A stretch of DNA of 64,000 bases from Escherichia coli (GTDB lineage Bacteria; Pseudomonadota; Gammaproteobacteria; Enterobacterales; Enterobacteriaceae): NCBI RefSeq assembly GCF_003018255.1, contig NZ_CP027440.1; one strand, given 5' to 3'. The position numbers were made by a program, and so were the translations under genes. Numbering within the stretch: the stretch's first letter is position 1; each line of letters begins with the position of its first letter. Under the pieces are notes generated by a model, which did no database searches, was not told where the DNA came from, and was given only the letters and a program-made list of their open reading frames with translations. This document shows, piece after piece, positions 13,041 to 63,455 of this stretch.

Positions 13041-13206
13041 TTTTATGTAAGCATAGTTCAGAAAAGTATTGTGTGATCTTAGTAACAAATAATGTTATTA
13101 ATTAAACATTGACCATGATTATATTTCACGGTCATACATTTATATATTTAATTAAATGAAAGGTAGTGTTCTCTCTTAATTTATGGTCGTTTGTCGAGTG
13201 TATTGA

Positions 13207-14331
13207 CTAACAAGATGGAGTGAGCGATTCATTGTATTTTAACGCCAGTGAGGTCAGCATTTGTGTTACGCGACCTGCGGATAATAACGCGCTTTGGGTA
13301 AAGTCGTGTTGGTCTGTCAGCCATGTGATAAAACAACGACTGGTTGCCAGAGAAACATTTGCGCCCCTTTCTAAGCAGGCTCCCGTGAGTAGGCAGACCA
13401 TCTTGCAGTTATTCCCCTGCTCCCAGCGCTGCCACTGATTTTGCCACCAACCATGGTATGTCGTTCCCTTAAAATGCCAGGGCGTATCAGCGTTACTGTC
13501 ACTGATTTCTTCTTCTACGAACCAAAGTTCACCTTGTTGTTGGCGGAACTGATCTGCCCAGGCTGTAATAATTGCGCCTCTTAGAAAACATTCGTGTGAA
13601 ATAATATGCGTTTTGACATCTGGATAGCGGATTTTCAGTATTCTGAAATGCCCGTGTGCCGTGATAACCGGGCGTAGTATGGCTCCCTTACCGTTGCGCT
13701 TGAGTACAGCACTGCCATACTGAATTTCATCGAACTGGCTCCGGCGCAAGAATTGCGCTTCACGCATATCTACCTTCTGCACGATATCGCGATGGTGCAT
13801 AGTTGGTTCTGTGTTGCCCTTGTAACTGTACCGCAGACTGTCTCCTGTCTGATGTTGCGTATAATTCGTGGAGAGATGAAGAATGTTGCCACGAGTGGCG
13901 TCAAGACTGACTAAAACATACAGTTTTTGTACTGCGCTGGCCCCTTGAAAGGGTATGAACAGTTGAACGGTTTCAATGGCCTGGGGATGCGTAATTTCTT
14001 TCTGATACTGTTTAGGCGTCCAGACTTTTTTGCAGTTACGGCATTGAATGCGTTGCGAACCCTGTGGATTGTGACCATAACAAATCATGTCTGTGCCATA
14101 ACATACCGGGCAGAAATGACCCTTCTCCGAGGCCCACGTAGATAAGTGAACTGACAACCAGTCACGAAATTGTTGCTCGTCAAACAACGGCGGGTAACTG
14201 CCACATGCCCGACAGTGCAGTGCCGGATAACCCAGTTTATAGTCTGGCCAACTGTAATCTTCCGATGAGGCCAATCCCAAATTTCGGCAACCGAACGTTT
14301 TACAGGCATTAATCGTAAACAGAGTCGACAT
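13207..14331 (-). CDS. Hypothetical cysteine-rich protein with multiple zinc-ribbon-like CxxC pairs; no signal peptide
   Basis: 374-aa ORF with ATG start; N-terminal third has C10/C15, C40-x2-C43, C74-x2-C77, C84, C97-x2-C100 with GHNP between the last two pairs; C-terminal part His/Trp-rich. No family recognised by eye. Confidence 0.6.
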   Translation of the reverse strand: MSTLFTINACKTFGCRNLGLASSEDYSWPDYKLGYPALHCRACGSYPPLFDEQQFRDWLSVHLSTWASEKGHFCPVCYGTDMICYGHNPQGSQRIQCRNCKKVWTPKQYQKEITHPQAIETVQLFIPFQGASAVQKLYVLVSLDATRGNILHLSTNYTQHQTGDSLRYSYKGNTEPTMHHRDIVQKVDMREAQFLRRSQFDEIQYGSAVLKRNGKGAILRPVITAHGHFRILKIRYPDVKTHIISHECFLRGAIITAWADQFRQQQGELWFVEEEISDSNADTPWHFKGTTYHGWWQNQWQRWEQGNNCKMVCLLTGACLERGANVSLATSRCFITWLTDQHDFTQSALLSAGRVTQMLTSLALKYNESLTPSC

Positions 14332-14338
14332 ATATCAC

Positions 14339-14360
14339 CAACGATTTCACAAGGTCGTTG
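14339..14360. promoter_or_regulatory. Candidate operator palindrome in the divergent promoter region
   Basis: CAACGA-N10-TCGTTG inverted repeat immediately upstream of the Cys-rich ORF start and about 100 bp upstream of paralog C. Confidence 0.3.
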
Positions 14361-14463
14361 ATTTTGTCCGGCAACTATCCCCTGCAGATGTGATTACTCT
14401 CACATAAATAAGTCTTTCAGAACGTAATGTAGCAATCCTTTATCTCACTGAAAGGGATTGTTT

Positions 14464-16017
14464 ATGAAAATTAAAATACTTGCTGCGGGTATCGCATTAA
14501 CACTGCCGTTCTGGGCTTGCGCTAAAGATGTCACTATTATTTATACCAACGACCTCCATGCGCATGTAGAACCTTATAAAGTGCCGTGGATCGCTGACGG
14601 TAAACGGGATATTGGCGGCTGGGCAAATATCACTACGCTGGTTAAGCAAGAAAAAGCAAAAAATAAAGCGACATGGTTTTTTGATGCGGGCGACTATTTT
14701 ACCGGGCCATATATCAGCAGCCTGACCAAAGGTAAGGCTATTATCGATATTATGAATACTATGCCGTTTGATGCCGTCACGATAGGCAACCATGAATTTG
14801 ACCACGGCTGGGACAACACATTATTACAGTTGAGTCAGGCAAAATTCCCGATTGTGCAGGGCAATGTTTTTTATCAGAACAGCAGTAAATCATTCTGGGA
14901 TAAGCCCTATACCATCATCGAAAAAGACGGTGTGAAAATAGGCGTTATAGGTTTGCACGGTGTATTTGCCTTTAATGACACAGTATCTGCTGCCACGCGA
15001 GTGGGTATTGAGGCGCGTGATGAAATTAAATGGCTACAACGTTATATCGATGAACTTAAAGGCAAGGTTGATTTGACCGTCGCCCTGATCCATGAAGGTG
15101 TTCCGGCCCGCCAGTCCAGTATGGGAGGCACAGATGTGCGTCGCGCGCTGGATAAAGATATTCAGACGGCAAGTCAGGTGAAAGGGCTGGATATTTTGAT
15201 CACCGGACATGCACATGTGGGTACGCCGGAACCGATTAAAGTCGGCAATACGCTCATCCTCTCCACTGACAGCGGCGGGATTGATGTGGGCAAACTGGTT
15301 CTCGACTACAAAGAGAAGCCGCATAATTTTACGGTGAAAAACTTCGAGCTTAAAACCATTTACGCTGACGAGTGGAAGCCCGATCCACAAACGAAACAGG
15401 TGATCGACGGCTGGAATAAAAAGCTTGATGAAGTGGTGCAACAAACGGTGGCGCAATCGCCGGTTGAATTAAAACGTGCCTATGGTGAATCGGCTTCCCT
15501 CGGGAACCTGGCGGCTGACGCTTTACTGGTAGCGGCGGGTAAAAACACCCAATTGGCGTTAACCAACTCTGGCGGCATTCGCAATGAGATCCCCGCAGGG
15601 GCGATCACGATGGGCGGCGTCATCAGTACGTTCCCGTTCCCCAACGAACTGGTGACGATGGAACTCACGGGTAAACAATTACGCAGTCTGATGGAACACG
15701 GCGCAAGTTTAAGCAATGGCGTTTTACAGGTATCGAAAGGCCTGGAAATGAAGTACGACAGCAGCAAGCCGGTTGGTCAGCGGGTAATCACACTGACTCT
15801 GAATGGCAAACCCATTGAAGATGCGACGGTTTATCACATTGCTACTCAGAGTTTCCTTGCTGATGGTGGAGATGGTTTTACCGCCTTTACCGAAGGGAAA
15901 GCGCGTAACACAACGGGCGGTTATTACGTTTATCACGCGGTGGTTGATTACTTCAAAGCGGGCAACACCATTACGGATGAACAGCTCAACGGTATGCGCG
16001 TGAAGGATATCAAATAA
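14464..16017 (+). CDS. Exported (possibly lipoprotein) bifunctional metallophosphatase/5'-nucleotidase (UshA/CpdB family), paralog C
   Basis: Track start 14458 is TTG; ATG at 14464 follows AAGGGA. Signal peptide [22 protein letters not shown] (possible lipobox Cys); motifs [30 protein letters not shown]. Confidence 0.85.

Positions 16018-62234: not shown

Positions 62235-63455
<1,221 letters not shown>

What the first reader, a model, noticed from the sequence alone, without database searches (positions are those of the whole stretch)
14332..14463. Palindromic candidate operator in the divergent promoter between the Cys-rich gene and nucleotidase C
The 132-bp spacer contains a perfect 6-bp inverted repeat CAACGA-N10-TCGTTG (14339-14360) directly upstream of the Cys-rich ORF start. 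Its position is what would be expected for autoregulation or co-regulation of the two divergent genes.
Basis: seen in the sequence. Interest (0 to 1): 0.35.

Follow-up and report, generated by a model that had tools for sequence, protein, structure and literature searches.

The report
Chance dyad inside a CRP-controlled divergent promoter
The 6-bp palindrome is really there, but it is no more than chance would give and its symmetry is not conserved.

Summary
CAACGA-N10-TCGTTG is present at 14339-14360, 7 nt from the start codon of the Cys-rich gene. By itself it is unremarkable: 44% of shuffles of the 132-bp spacer contain such a repeat.

In 28 distinct homologous spacers from about ten enterobacterial genera, the left arm lies in an 11-nt invariant block, ACCAACGATTT. 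None of 146 four-fold sites in the neighbouring nucleotidase gene is invariant. The right arm differs in 15 of the 28 and is never compensated. In more distant relatives the symmetry is mostly absent.

The real architecture is a perfect CRP core, TGTGA-N6-TCACA (14389-14404). It is placed about -41.5 from -10-like hexamers on both sides: CAAAAT for the Cys-rich gene and TAATGT for nucleotidase C. On this model the right arm is the discriminator and start-site region. The left arm belongs to a box (sense strand AAATCGTTGGT) at about +9 to +19.

That box core, GTTGG or a close variant, lies 46 nt (45 in one lineage) after a CRP-like site in all ten lineages examined that have this divergent promoter.

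The Cys-rich protein derives from an IS1-like transposase and has no conserved DDE triad. Its relatives usually sit divergent to nucleotide or nucleoside scavenging genes. Autoregulation through the box is possible but untested.

The parts
14332..14463 (.). 132-bp divergent control region between the Cys-rich gene and nucleotidase C
   Evidence: ORFs and RefSeq annotation. The length is essentially fixed, with only isolated 1-nt gaps across the 29-sequence alignment.
14339..14344 (.). Left arm of the reported dyad (CAACGA). On the gene's sense strand it is TCGTTG, at about +12 to +17 of the predicted Cys-rich transcript.
   Evidence: Invariant in 28 of 28 distinct sequences. It is part of the 11-nt invariant box.
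14355..14360 (.). Right arm of the reported dyad (TCGTTG). On the sense strand it is CAACGA, at about -6 to +1 of the predicted Cys-rich promoter (discriminator and start site).
   Evidence: There are 8 sequence variants and only 13 of 28 sequences are TCGTTG. No change is compensated.
14337..14347 (-). Invariant box, AAATCGTTGGT on the sense strand. Its core GTTGG (14338-14342) is at a fixed distance from the CRP site.
   Evidence: It is an 11-nt invariant run. The longest invariant run in the nucC coding alignment is 8 nt, and 0 of 146 four-fold sites are invariant. GTTGG or a close variant (GTTGA, GTTGC, GTGGG) lies 46 nt after a CRP-like site in ten lineages, 45 nt in L043.
14334..14339 (-). 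Probable Shine-Dalgarno sequence GGTGAT of the Cys-rich gene, 2 nt before the ATG
   Evidence: Read directly from the sequence. It is complementary to the 16S rRNA 3' end (established knowledge). Only the GGT part is conserved across genera.
14361..14366 (-). Predicted -10 hexamer CAAAAT of the Cys-rich gene
   Evidence: Positions 2 and 6 of the hexamer are invariant and position 5 is conserved in 27 of 28 sequences, while positions 1, 3 and 4 vary (CAAAAT, CAGAAT, TAACAT). Its first base is 30.5 bp from the CRP centre. Equivalent -10-like hexamers occur in the distant lineages.
14354..14355 (-). Predicted transcription start of the Cys-rich gene
   Evidence: Inferred from the -10 position. 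A start at 14355 puts the CRP centre at -41.5. Not measured.
14389..14404 (.). CRP binding site core TGTGATTACTCTCACA (centre 14396.5)
   Evidence: It is the only perfect TGTGA-N6-TCACA in the 64-kb window, where 0.10 is expected by chance. TGTGA is invariant, TCACA is nearly invariant, and the spacer is variable across 29 sequences.
14415..14427 (+). Conserved block TTTCAGAACGTAA between the CRP site and the nucleotidase -10. Function unknown.
   Evidence: Column identities are 0.86-1.00.
14425..14430 (+). Predicted -10 hexamer TAATGT of nucleotidase C
   Evidence: T1, A2, A3 and T6 are invariant and positions 4 and 5 vary. Its first base is 28.5 bp from the CRP centre.
14452..14457 (+). Probable Shine-Dalgarno sequence AAGGGA of nucleotidase C
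   Evidence: AAGG is invariant.
13207..14331 (-). Cys-rich gene: an IS1-like transposase-derived protein (two zinc ribbons plus an RNase H-like core, with no conserved DDE triad)
14464..16017 (+). Nucleotidase C (metallophosphatase / 5'-nucleotidase)
   Evidence: It is 88-100% identical at the amino-acid level across genera and lies divergent to the Cys-rich gene in every locus that covers that side.

Best explanation
The spacer is a compact back-to-back promoter pair driven by one cAMP-CRP dimer bound at 14389-14404. That site lies about 41.5 bp upstream of both predicted start sites (class II geometry). The -10 hexamers are CAAAAT (14366-14361) for the Cys-rich gene and TAATGT (14425-14430) for nucleotidase C.

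The reported palindrome is not a unit of its own. Its right arm is the discriminator and start-site segment of the Cys-rich promoter (about -6 to +1). Its left arm is part of a separately constrained 11-nt box (sense strand AAATCGTTGGT, about +9 to +19) that also overlaps the ribosome-binding site. The complementarity of the two arms is incidental.

The box is a genuine cis element tied to the promoter. I consider it most likely a single-site operator or a 5'-proximal leader signal acting on the Cys-rich gene.

Shown here: the sequence features, their conservation, the spacing, and the lack of conserved symmetry. Inferred: the start sites, CRP dependence, and the role of the box.
For: CRP site and promoter geometry:
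- The perfect CRP core is unique in the window, where 0.10 is expected by chance.
- It shows the classic footprint: both half-sites conserved, 6-nt spacer free.
- Both -10 candidates keep the positions that matter and vary elsewhere.
- The spacer has almost no indels across about ten genera.
- In ten lineages down to about 25-30% protein identity, a CRP-like site is followed after 46 nt (45 in L043) by GTTGG or a close variant. A -10-like hexamer sits at about nt 20-28 in most of them. The distance from the box to the start codon ranges from 6 to 142 nt.
- A single CRP molecule is known to serve divergent promoters, and nucleoside genes (tsx, nupC, nupG, deoC, udp, cdd, cpdB) are classic CRP targets (PMC3105977).

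Constraint on the box:
- It is an 11-nt invariant run. None of 146 four-fold sites in nucC is invariant, and the longest invariant run in nucC is 8 nt.

Lack of dyad symmetry:
- The right arm has 8 variants and no compensation. The Watson-Crick dyad is perfect in 13 of 28 sequences.
- A dyad involving the box is absent in 7 of 9 distant lineages.
- 44% of shuffles of the spacer contain a comparable repeat.
Against: - No start site or expression data were available, so the -41.5 geometry rests on predicted -10 hexamers.
- An alternative reading cannot be excluded from sequence alone. In it, CRP sits at -61.5 (class I), the -10 lies in the dyad loop (TGAAAT or TAAAAT), and the start is just after GTTGG. 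In E. coli that hexamer lacks the key A at position 2.
- The consensus promoter scan did not call either promoter. This is expected for activator-dependent promoters without a -35.
- Two distant lineages (L040 CAACT/AGTTG, L042 ACTGA/TCAGT) do have a dyad ending in the box. A looser symmetry requirement is therefore not fully excluded.
- The function of the box is not established.
Confidence: 0.6

Rival explanations
1. The dyad CAACGA-N10-TCGTTG is a two-fold symmetric operator bound by a dimeric repressor, possibly the Cys-rich protein. It would repress the Cys-rich gene and perhaps co-regulate nucleotidase C.
For: - It spans about -6 to +17 of the predicted Cys-rich promoter, a typical repressor position.
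- The left arm is invariant and the right arm is more conserved than neutral sites (0.68-1.00 against 0.60).
- The Cys-rich protein carries an IS1 InsA-type zinc ribbon, and InsA represses its own promoter (PMC12428005).
- Two distant lineages have a dyad at the same place.
Against: - The right arm is changed in 15 of 28 sequences and never compensated.
- A dyad involving the box is absent in 7 of 9 distant lineages that keep the CRP-to-box spacing.
- The 16-bp centre-to-centre spacing puts the half-sites on opposite helix faces, and the spacing is not constant where a dyad exists (loops of 10, 9 and 5 nt).
- No copy lies at the nucleotidase promoter or upstream of the other island operon.
- The E. 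coli protein lacks the HTH segment.
- A repeat like this is expected by chance in 44% of shuffles.
Confidence: 0.15
2. The two arms pair in the 5' leader of the Cys-rich mRNA. They would form an 8-bp hairpin, AUCAACGA/UCGUUGGU, that occludes part of the Shine-Dalgarno sequence and controls translation.
For: - On the sense strand the stem extends to 8 pairs and includes the GGU of the SD. The MFE is -9.8 kcal/mol.
- 97% of cells are pairable when G-U pairs are allowed.
Against: - There are no compensatory changes (0 pairs changed on both sides), and shuffling the 3' letters changes nothing because that arm is invariant.
- Five of the six possible transitions in the variable arm give a wobble pair anyway. 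The one that breaks pairing (G to A) occurs in four sequences.
- The RNAalifold consensus is only -3 kcal/mol with a covariation term of -0.27.
- Stability is not unusual: z = -1.76, and 10 of 200 shuffles fold at least as well.
- The predicted start site lies at or after the 5' arm, so that arm would not be transcribed.
- The invariance extends to unpaired flanking bases.
- There is no Rfam match.
Confidence: 0.07
3. On the plus strand, the hairpin followed by ATTTTG acts as an intrinsic terminator, or an insulator, for transcription running antisense through the Cys-rich gene towards nucleotidase C.
For: The terminator-like scan flags 14339-14360 plus the following T-run.
Against: - The stem is weak: 3 G-C pairs among 9 pairs that include G-T, and only 4 consecutive T follow it.
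- No plus-strand gene ends upstream of it.
- On the plus strand the common T-to-C changes in the right arm create A-C mismatches, so only 15 of 28 sequences pair fully.
- One such hit against 0.4 expected in 400 bp is not significant.
Confidence: 0.03
4. Promoter variant. CRP acts from -61.5 (class I). The -10 is the A/T-rich hexamer in the dyad loop, immediately 5' of the box, and transcription starts just after GTTGG. The left arm would then be the discriminator and the mRNA would be nearly leaderless.
For: - The distance from the CRP centre to the hexamer just 5' of the box fits about -61.5.
- Several lineages have good hexamers there (TAAAAT, AAATAT, GAATAT).
- TTGCCG / TTGCAG lies 17-18 bp upstream as a weak -35.
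Against: - In E. coli and many relatives the hexamer is TGAAAT or CGAAAT, lacking the critical A at position 2.
- Several distant lineages have no usable hexamer there (TTTTGA, TTTTGT), whereas the class II -10 position is filled in about 7 of 10 lineages.
- It would leave the GGTGAT ribosome-binding site untranscribed.
Confidence: 0.12

Closest known systems
Divergent promoter pairs activated by a single cAMP-CRP dimer (the El-Robh and Busby model system; natural cases listed in Shimada et al. 2011, PMC3105977)
   Same: One consensus CRP site lies in a short intergenic spacer, at activating distance from -10 elements on both sides. The regulated genes are for carbon and nucleoside scavenging.
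   Different: Nothing here has been measured. Both sides appear to be class II, with the predicted starts about 83 bp apart. The locus is absent from E. coli K-12, so it is not in the curated CRP regulon.
IS1 InsA autorepression at the left inverted repeat (PMC12428005 and references in it)
   Same: The adjacent gene encodes a protein with an InsA-type zinc ribbon (13 of 32 residues identical). A highly conserved box lies at its own promoter, so self-repression is a natural model.
   Different: InsA needs both the zinc finger and an HTH, and the E. coli protein lacks the HTH segment. The box lies downstream of the -10, not at a transposon end. There is no second inverted copy, no mobility, and no sequence match to the IS1 inverted repeat beyond short words.
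The CytR/CRP nucleoside regulon of E. coli (deo, udp, cdd, tsx, nupC, nupG); description from established knowledge
   Same: CRP-dependent promoters of nucleoside and nucleotide scavenging genes, modulated by an additional local factor.
   Different: CytR promoters usually carry two CRP sites flanking the CytR operator (octamers GTTGCATT, recalled from memory). Here there is one CRP site and no such octamer by inspection.
malI-malX divergent regulator and target pair (recalled from memory; listed in PMC3105977 as using different CRP molecules)
   Same: A candidate regulator gene lies divergent to its presumed target, with CRP in the spacer and an operator near the regulator's start site.
   Different: MalI is a LacI-type repressor with proven operators. 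Here no protein has been shown to bind.

Membership tests
Class II CRP-dependent promoter | DNA site matching the CRP consensus TGTGA-N6-TCACA | tested here: met
   Perfect core at 14389-14404, the only one in 64 kb where 0.10 is expected. The half-sites are conserved and the spacer is variable in 29 sequences.
Class II CRP-dependent promoter | Site centred near -41.5 relative to the transcription start | tested here: inconclusive
   Both predicted -10 hexamers begin 28.5 and 30.5 bp from the centre, which fits -41.5 within 1 bp. The start sites are predicted, not measured.
Class II CRP-dependent promoter | Transcription depends on cAMP-CRP | not testable with these tools
   Needs a crp mutant or in vitro transcription.
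Two-fold symmetric repressor operator | Both half-sites conserved, or co-varying, in orthologous promoters | tested here: not met
   The left arm is invariant in 28 of 28 sequences. The right arm has 8 variants and nothing is compensated. The dyad is perfect in 13 of 28.
Two-fold symmetric repressor operator | Symmetry retained in more distant homologous promoters | tested here: not met
   A dyad involving the box is present in 2 of 9 distant lineages, with different loop lengths, and absent in 7.
Two-fold symmetric repressor operator | Further copies at co-regulated promoters | tested here: not met
   The dyad occurs once in the window. The only other copy of the box is inside a long ORF at 63001. 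There is none upstream of nucleotidase B.
Two-fold symmetric repressor operator | Specific protein binding | not testable with these tools
   Needs EMSA, footprinting or ChIP.
Regulatory RNA hairpin (translational operator) | Base pairs supported by compensatory changes | tested here: not met
   0 pairs changed on both sides.
Regulatory RNA hairpin (translational operator) | Stability beyond that of shuffled sequence | tested here: inconclusive
   z = -1.76; 10 of 200 shuffles fold at least as well.
Regulatory RNA hairpin (translational operator) | Both arms lie within the transcript | tested here: inconclusive
   The predicted start (14354-14355) falls at the end of the 5' arm. It has not been measured.
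Known RNA families (Rfam 15) | Match to a covariance model | tested here: not met
   Only two sub-threshold chance hits, both outside the spacer.
Intrinsic terminator (plus strand) | G+C-rich stem followed by a U-run at the end of a transcription unit | tested here: not met
   The scan flags it, but with only 3 G-C pairs and 4 T, and no plus-strand gene ends there.
IS1-family transposase (the Cys-rich protein) | InsA-type N-terminal zinc finger | tested here: met
   NF050000 at E 7e-5 and PF03811 at E 0.007 in the query, both below the curated cut-offs. PF03811 reaches E 4e-8 in 16 of 50 family members. BLASTP against K-12 InsA gives 13 of 32 identities, E 8e-6.
IS1-family transposase (the Cys-rich protein) | HTH following the zinc finger | tested here: not met
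   The 374-aa enterobacterial group lacks the roughly 55-residue helical insert present in distant members. In the P0140 model that insert forms helices 114-126, 133-140 and 144-169.
IS1-family transposase (the Cys-rich protein) | RNase H-fold core with a conserved DDE triad | tested here: not met
IS1-family transposase (the Cys-rich protein) | Terminal inverted repeats and multiple or mobile copies | tested here: not met
   There is one place per genome in 1841 E. coli genomes. In 14 of the 30 related loci, metF lies within the fetched flank. No inverted second copy of the box was found.

The most novel reading that the evidence does not exclude
The invariant box, not the dyad, is the operator of a previously unrecognised family of domesticated IS1-like transposase proteins that have become local regulators of nucleotide and nucleoside scavenging operons in Gammaproteobacteria. 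These operons include 5'-nucleotidases, nupC with deo genes, and a porin with an AphA-like phosphatase and a phosphodiesterase. Each family gene would sit behind its own class II CRP promoter and repress itself, and perhaps its divergent partner, through the GTTGG box about 14 nt into the transcribed region. That would echo InsA autorepression in the ancestral insertion sequence.
Probability: 0.25. Interest if true: 0.65.

Novelty: new member of a known kind. Interest (0 to 1): 0.3.

Why it matters
For the dyad itself, little: it should not be carried forward as an operator.

The surrounding result is more useful. It gives a concrete, testable regulatory model for an uncharacterised locus between metL and metF, matched in 1841 of 5426 complete E. 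coli genomes (genomic region GR31 of ExPEC strain BEN2908). In that model one CRP dimer drives both genes, and an 11-nt box more conserved than any stretch of the adjacent enzyme gene acts on the Cys-rich gene.

It also flags a small family of transposase-derived proteins that are consistently linked to nucleotide salvage genes. If confirmed as regulators, they would be a rare bacterial example of transposase domestication into a metabolic control circuit.

Tried and rejected
- **Rfam search of 13900-14900:** nothing relevant.
- **Single-sequence folding of both strands:** z-scores of about -1.1 to -2.0, unremarkable.
- **RNAalifold and pair counting on both strands of the 29-sequence alignment:** no compensatory pair anywhere, including the CRP 'hairpin' and the nucleotidase leader.
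- **Other copies of the dyad or box in the window:** none in a regulatory position.
- **Promoter consensus scan:** called neither promoter. It flagged only a hit inside the nucleotidase start region and the weak terminator-like hairpin.
- **Known operator consensus sequences recalled from memory** (CytR GTTGCATT, PurR, Cra, DeoR, GlpR, GalR, MetJ, and the GntR-type GGT/ACC pattern): no convincing match by inspection. This was not a formal test.
- **Upstream in-frame extension of the Cys-rich ORF over the box** (as in 391-aa Citrobacter annotations): rejected, because in E. coli a TGA closes that frame 6 nt before the ATG.
- **Box as a relic of an IS1 terminal inverted repeat:** only the short words CCAAC and GATTT are shared with the IS1A end, and there is no second inverted copy. 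Left as speculation.
- **hhalign of the family profile against K-12 InsB:** uninformative.
- **One BLAST hit (H20/L003):** lies in a stretch annotated almost entirely as gene fragments from unrelated loci, and was ignored.
- **Literature searches:** found no characterisation of the protein family or of this promoter.

Full report
**Observation.** The window is E. coli chromosome. The region is an island between metL and metF. It holds a tsx-like channel gene, two 5'-nucleotidase genes, a 374-codon Cys-rich ORF (13207-14331, minus strand) and a third nucleotidase gene (14464-16017, plus strand). The 132-bp spacer (14332-14463) does contain CAACGA (14339-14344), 10 nt, then TCGTTG (14355-14360). 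The dyad begins 7 nt beyond the ATG of the Cys-rich ORF.

As a single-sequence observation it carries no weight. It is one of 13 inverted repeats of 6 nt or more in 301 bp. In addition, 44% of dinucleotide-preserving shuffles of the spacer contain at least one perfect 6-bp inverted repeat with a loop of 0-20 nt. The exact dyad occurs nowhere else in the window. The only other copy of its conserved left part lies inside a long ORF 49 kb away. Nothing similar lies upstream of the other island operon.

**Conservation.** The locus is matched in 1841 of 5426 complete E. coli genomes, in a long form (as here) and a short form that has only the Cys-rich gene and nucleotidase C. A scan of one genome per species returned 30 loci, mostly from Escherichia, Citrobacter, Klebsiella, Enterobacter, Pluralibacter, Pseudocitrobacter, Silvania, Superficieibacter and Kluyvera. 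In every locus that covers that side, a nucleotidase C orthologue lies divergent to the Cys-rich gene. In 14 of the 30 loci metF lies within the fetched flank, so this is a conserved chromosomal gene pair.

- Nucleotidase C is 88-100% identical at the protein level among the 28 close loci. The Cys-rich protein is only 48-89% identical.
- The spacers align almost without gaps.
- As a neutral baseline, none of 146 four-fold degenerate sites in invariant codons of nucleotidase C is invariant across 26 loci. Their mean majority frequency is 0.60, and the longest invariant nucleotide run in that gene is 8 nt.
- Against this baseline the spacer holds an 11-nt invariant run, ACCAACGATTT (14337-14347). 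This is the left arm plus two 5' and three 3' bases.
- The 5-nt centre of the dyad loop is at neutral level (0.46-0.71).
- The right arm is intermediate (0.68-1.00) and has eight sequence variants.

**Is the symmetry selected?** No evidence says so.
- The left arm never changes, so nothing is ever compensated. The Watson-Crick dyad is perfect in 13 of 28 distinct sequences, 5 of 6 in 11, and 4 of 6 in 4.
- On the sense strand of the Cys-rich gene the arms could form an 8-bp RNA stem that includes the GGU of the ribosome-binding site, and 97% of cells are pairable with G-U allowed.
- That pairability is expected anyway. Five of the six possible transitions in the variable arm give a wobble pair, and the one that does not (G to A) occurs in four sequences.
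- The formal count shows zero double-sided changes, and shuffling has no effect.
- RNAalifold gives -3 kcal/mol with a negligible covariation term.
- Single-sequence stability is ordinary (z = -1.76), and Rfam finds nothing.
- The plus-strand 'terminator' flagged by the scan is weak, has no gene to terminate, and is broken by the common right-arm changes.

**What the spacer actually is.** It is the only perfect match in 64 kb, where 0.10 is expected. Across the 29 sequences TGTGA is invariant, TCACA is nearly invariant, and the six central bases vary freely. That is the expected footprint of a CRP site.

On each side, about 29.5 bp from its centre (14396.5), lies a -10-like hexamer whose variation pattern fits a real -10.
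- On the minus strand it is CAAAAT (14366-14361; variants CAGAAT and TAACAT). Positions 2 and 6 are invariant and position 5 is conserved in 27 of 28 sequences.
- On the plus strand it is TAATGT (14425-14430; variants TAAAGT, TAACGT, TAACTT, TAAAAT). T1, A2, A3 and T6 are invariant.

This is the geometry of class II CRP activation (centre near -41.5; established knowledge) applied in both directions from one site. The predicted starts are at about 14354-14355 and about 14437-14438. A single CRP molecule serving divergent promoters is documented, and nucleoside scavenging genes are typical CRP targets (PMC3105977).

On this model the right arm of the dyad is the discriminator and start-site segment (about -6 to +1) of the Cys-rich promoter. 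The left arm lies at about +12 to +17 in the leader, and the box as a whole at about +9 to +19. The box overlaps the GGTGAT ribosome-binding site by three bases.

**Evidence from distant relatives.** The Cys-rich protein belongs to a small family: 123 representatives at 50% clustering. Members occur in Enterobacteriaceae, Proteus, Salmonella serovar Give, Atlantibacter, Vibrio, Photobacterium and Agarivorans. They are annotated variously as cytoplasmic protein, hypothetical protein, or IS1 family transposase.

I fetched ten further lineages at about 25-40% identity.
- Nine lie divergent to another gene or operon. For eight of these the partner is for nucleotide or nucleoside scavenging:
  - 5'-nucleotidases (L035, L043, L047, L049);
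  - nupC with a nucleoside phosphorylase (L040);
  - nupC-deoC-deoA (L044);
  - a deoB-like metalloenzyme gene, a phosphorylase gene and a nucleoside symporter gene (L050);
  - a porin, a class B acid phosphatase and a class II phosphodiesterase (L037).
- The ninth (L042) lies divergent to a truncated gene with no domain hit on record.
- The tenth (L048) follows a tsx-sulfatase operon in the same orientation and shows neither the CRP-like site nor the box.
- In the main family and all nine divergent lineages, a CRP-like 16-mer (6-10 of 10 consensus positions) is followed by the box core. The gap is 46 nt in nine cases and 45 nt in L043. The core is GTTGG, GTTGA, GTTGC or GTGGG.
- A -10-like hexamer (CAATAT, TACTAT, TAGAAT, AAGAAT, CAAAAT) lies at about nt 20-28 of that interval in most of them.
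- The distance from the box to the start codon ranges from 6 to 142 nt, and the rest of the sequence is not alignable.

So the box core is anchored to the promoter, not to the start codon, and it belongs to the family gene whatever the partner operon. By contrast, a dyad involving the box is seen only in L040 (CAACT/AGTTG, loop 9) and L042 (ACTGA/TCAGT, loop 5), and not in the other seven. This is the strongest argument that the palindrome is incidental while its left half is functional.

- The family has no conserved DDE triad. The beta-1 position is Thr121, and the acidic columns D144 and D201 are replaced by Cys, Leu, Phe or Tyr in some members. The strictly conserved residues are Cys97, Cys100, Arg197 and His228.
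- The gene is single-copy, syntenic, and has no terminal repeats.
- It is therefore a domesticated, probably non-catalytic transposase derivative.
- Distant members carry a roughly 55-residue helical insert after the zinc ribbon that looks like the InsA HTH. In the P0140 model it forms helices 114-126, 133-140 and 144-169 (pLDDT 91.9). The 374-residue enterobacterial proteins, including the one in the window, lack it.
- InsA needs both the zinc finger and the HTH to bind the IS1 ends and repress its own promoter (PMC12428005).

Self-repression through the box is thus an attractive analogy for the family as a whole. It is less secure for the E. coli protein.

**Verdict.**
It is wrong about the unit (a symmetric operator), and it is incomplete because CRP was missed.
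- The best-supported mechanism is a bidirectional class II CRP promoter with a promoter-anchored box in the Cys-rich leader.
- What binds the box is unknown. My ranking for the box, separate from the explanation confidences above, is: a single-site operator, possibly for the gene's own product (about 0.35); another factor (about 0.25); a 5'-proximal RNA signal (about 0.25); and core-promoter or leader constraints only (about 0.15).
- The island itself is mentioned in the literature only as uncharacterised region GR31 of strain BEN2908 (PMC12928451).

Noticed in passing
window 14389-14404: A perfect CRP consensus core, TGTGATTACTCTCACA, lies in the middle of the spacer. It is the only perfect match in the 64-kb window. 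Its half-sites are conserved and its spacer is variable across about ten genera, and it is equidistant (about 29.5 bp) from -10-like hexamers on both strands.
   Followed up: yes
window 13207-14331 (minus strand); loci L035, L037, L040, L042-L045, L047-L050: The Cys-rich protein belongs to a family derived from an IS1-like transposase (InsA-type zinc ribbon plus an RNase H-fold core without a conserved DDE triad). In eight of the ten more distant lineages sampled, and in all the enterobacterial loci, it lies divergent to nucleotide or nucleoside scavenging genes: 5'-nucleotidases, nupC with deo genes, and a porin with an AphA-like phosphatase and a phosphodiesterase. I found no publication on this family.
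   Followed up: partly
window 14338-14342 (GTTGG on the minus strand) relative to 14389-14404; same feature in L035, L037, L040, L042, L043, L044, L047, L049, L050: There is a fixed 46-nt interval (45 nt in L043) between the end of a CRP-like 16-mer and a GTTGG, GTTGA, GTTGC or GTGGG box in ten lineages whose upstream regions are otherwise not alignable. The distance from the box to the start codon varies from 6 to 142 nt.
   Followed up: partly
window 14415-14427: The nearly invariant block TTTCAGAACGTAA lies between the CRP site and the nucleotidase C -10, a stretch that class II promoters do not normally constrain. A similar TTTCTGAAC follows the CRP-like site upstream of nucleotidase B (13056-13064, minus strand). 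It may be a second factor's site. It is unexplained.
   Followed up: partly
window 13072-13087: A CRP-like site with one mismatch (TGTGATCTTAGTAACA) lies in the 229-bp spacer upstream of the nucleotidase B - nucleotidase A - tsx-like operon. Its distance to candidate -10 hexamers does not fit -41.5 cleanly.
   Followed up: partly
window 14414-14420 / 14448-14454 and 14433-14441 / 14452-14460: Two further inverted repeats involve the nucleotidase C ribosome-binding region: CTTTCAG/CTGAAAG, and CAATCCTTT/AAGGGATTG. The second would sequester the Shine-Dalgarno sequence in the leader. The arms are conserved, but no compensatory change was seen.
   Followed up: partly
window 13207-14331 versus 14332-16017; L002, L008: Within E. 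coli, the two allelic forms of the locus differ sharply by segment. The Cys-rich protein is about 78% identical between them, whereas the spacer is about 97% identical at the nucleotide level and nucleotidase C about 98% at the protein level. The Cys-rich gene therefore evolves much faster than its neighbours. In the short form its 3' end overlaps the 3' end of metL.
   Followed up: no
A3 alignment, query residues 105-118; P0140 model residues 114-169: The enterobacterial 374-aa proteins have lost a roughly 55-residue three-helix (HTH-like) segment that distant family members keep between the zinc ribbon and the RNase H-like core. Even so, the promoter box is most strictly conserved in exactly this group.
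   Followed up: partly
L003 (NZ_CP168949.1, 5047205-5060192): One E. coli 'complete genome' hit lies in a stretch annotated almost entirely as partial genes from unrelated loci. It looks like a mis-assembly and was excluded.
   Followed up: no
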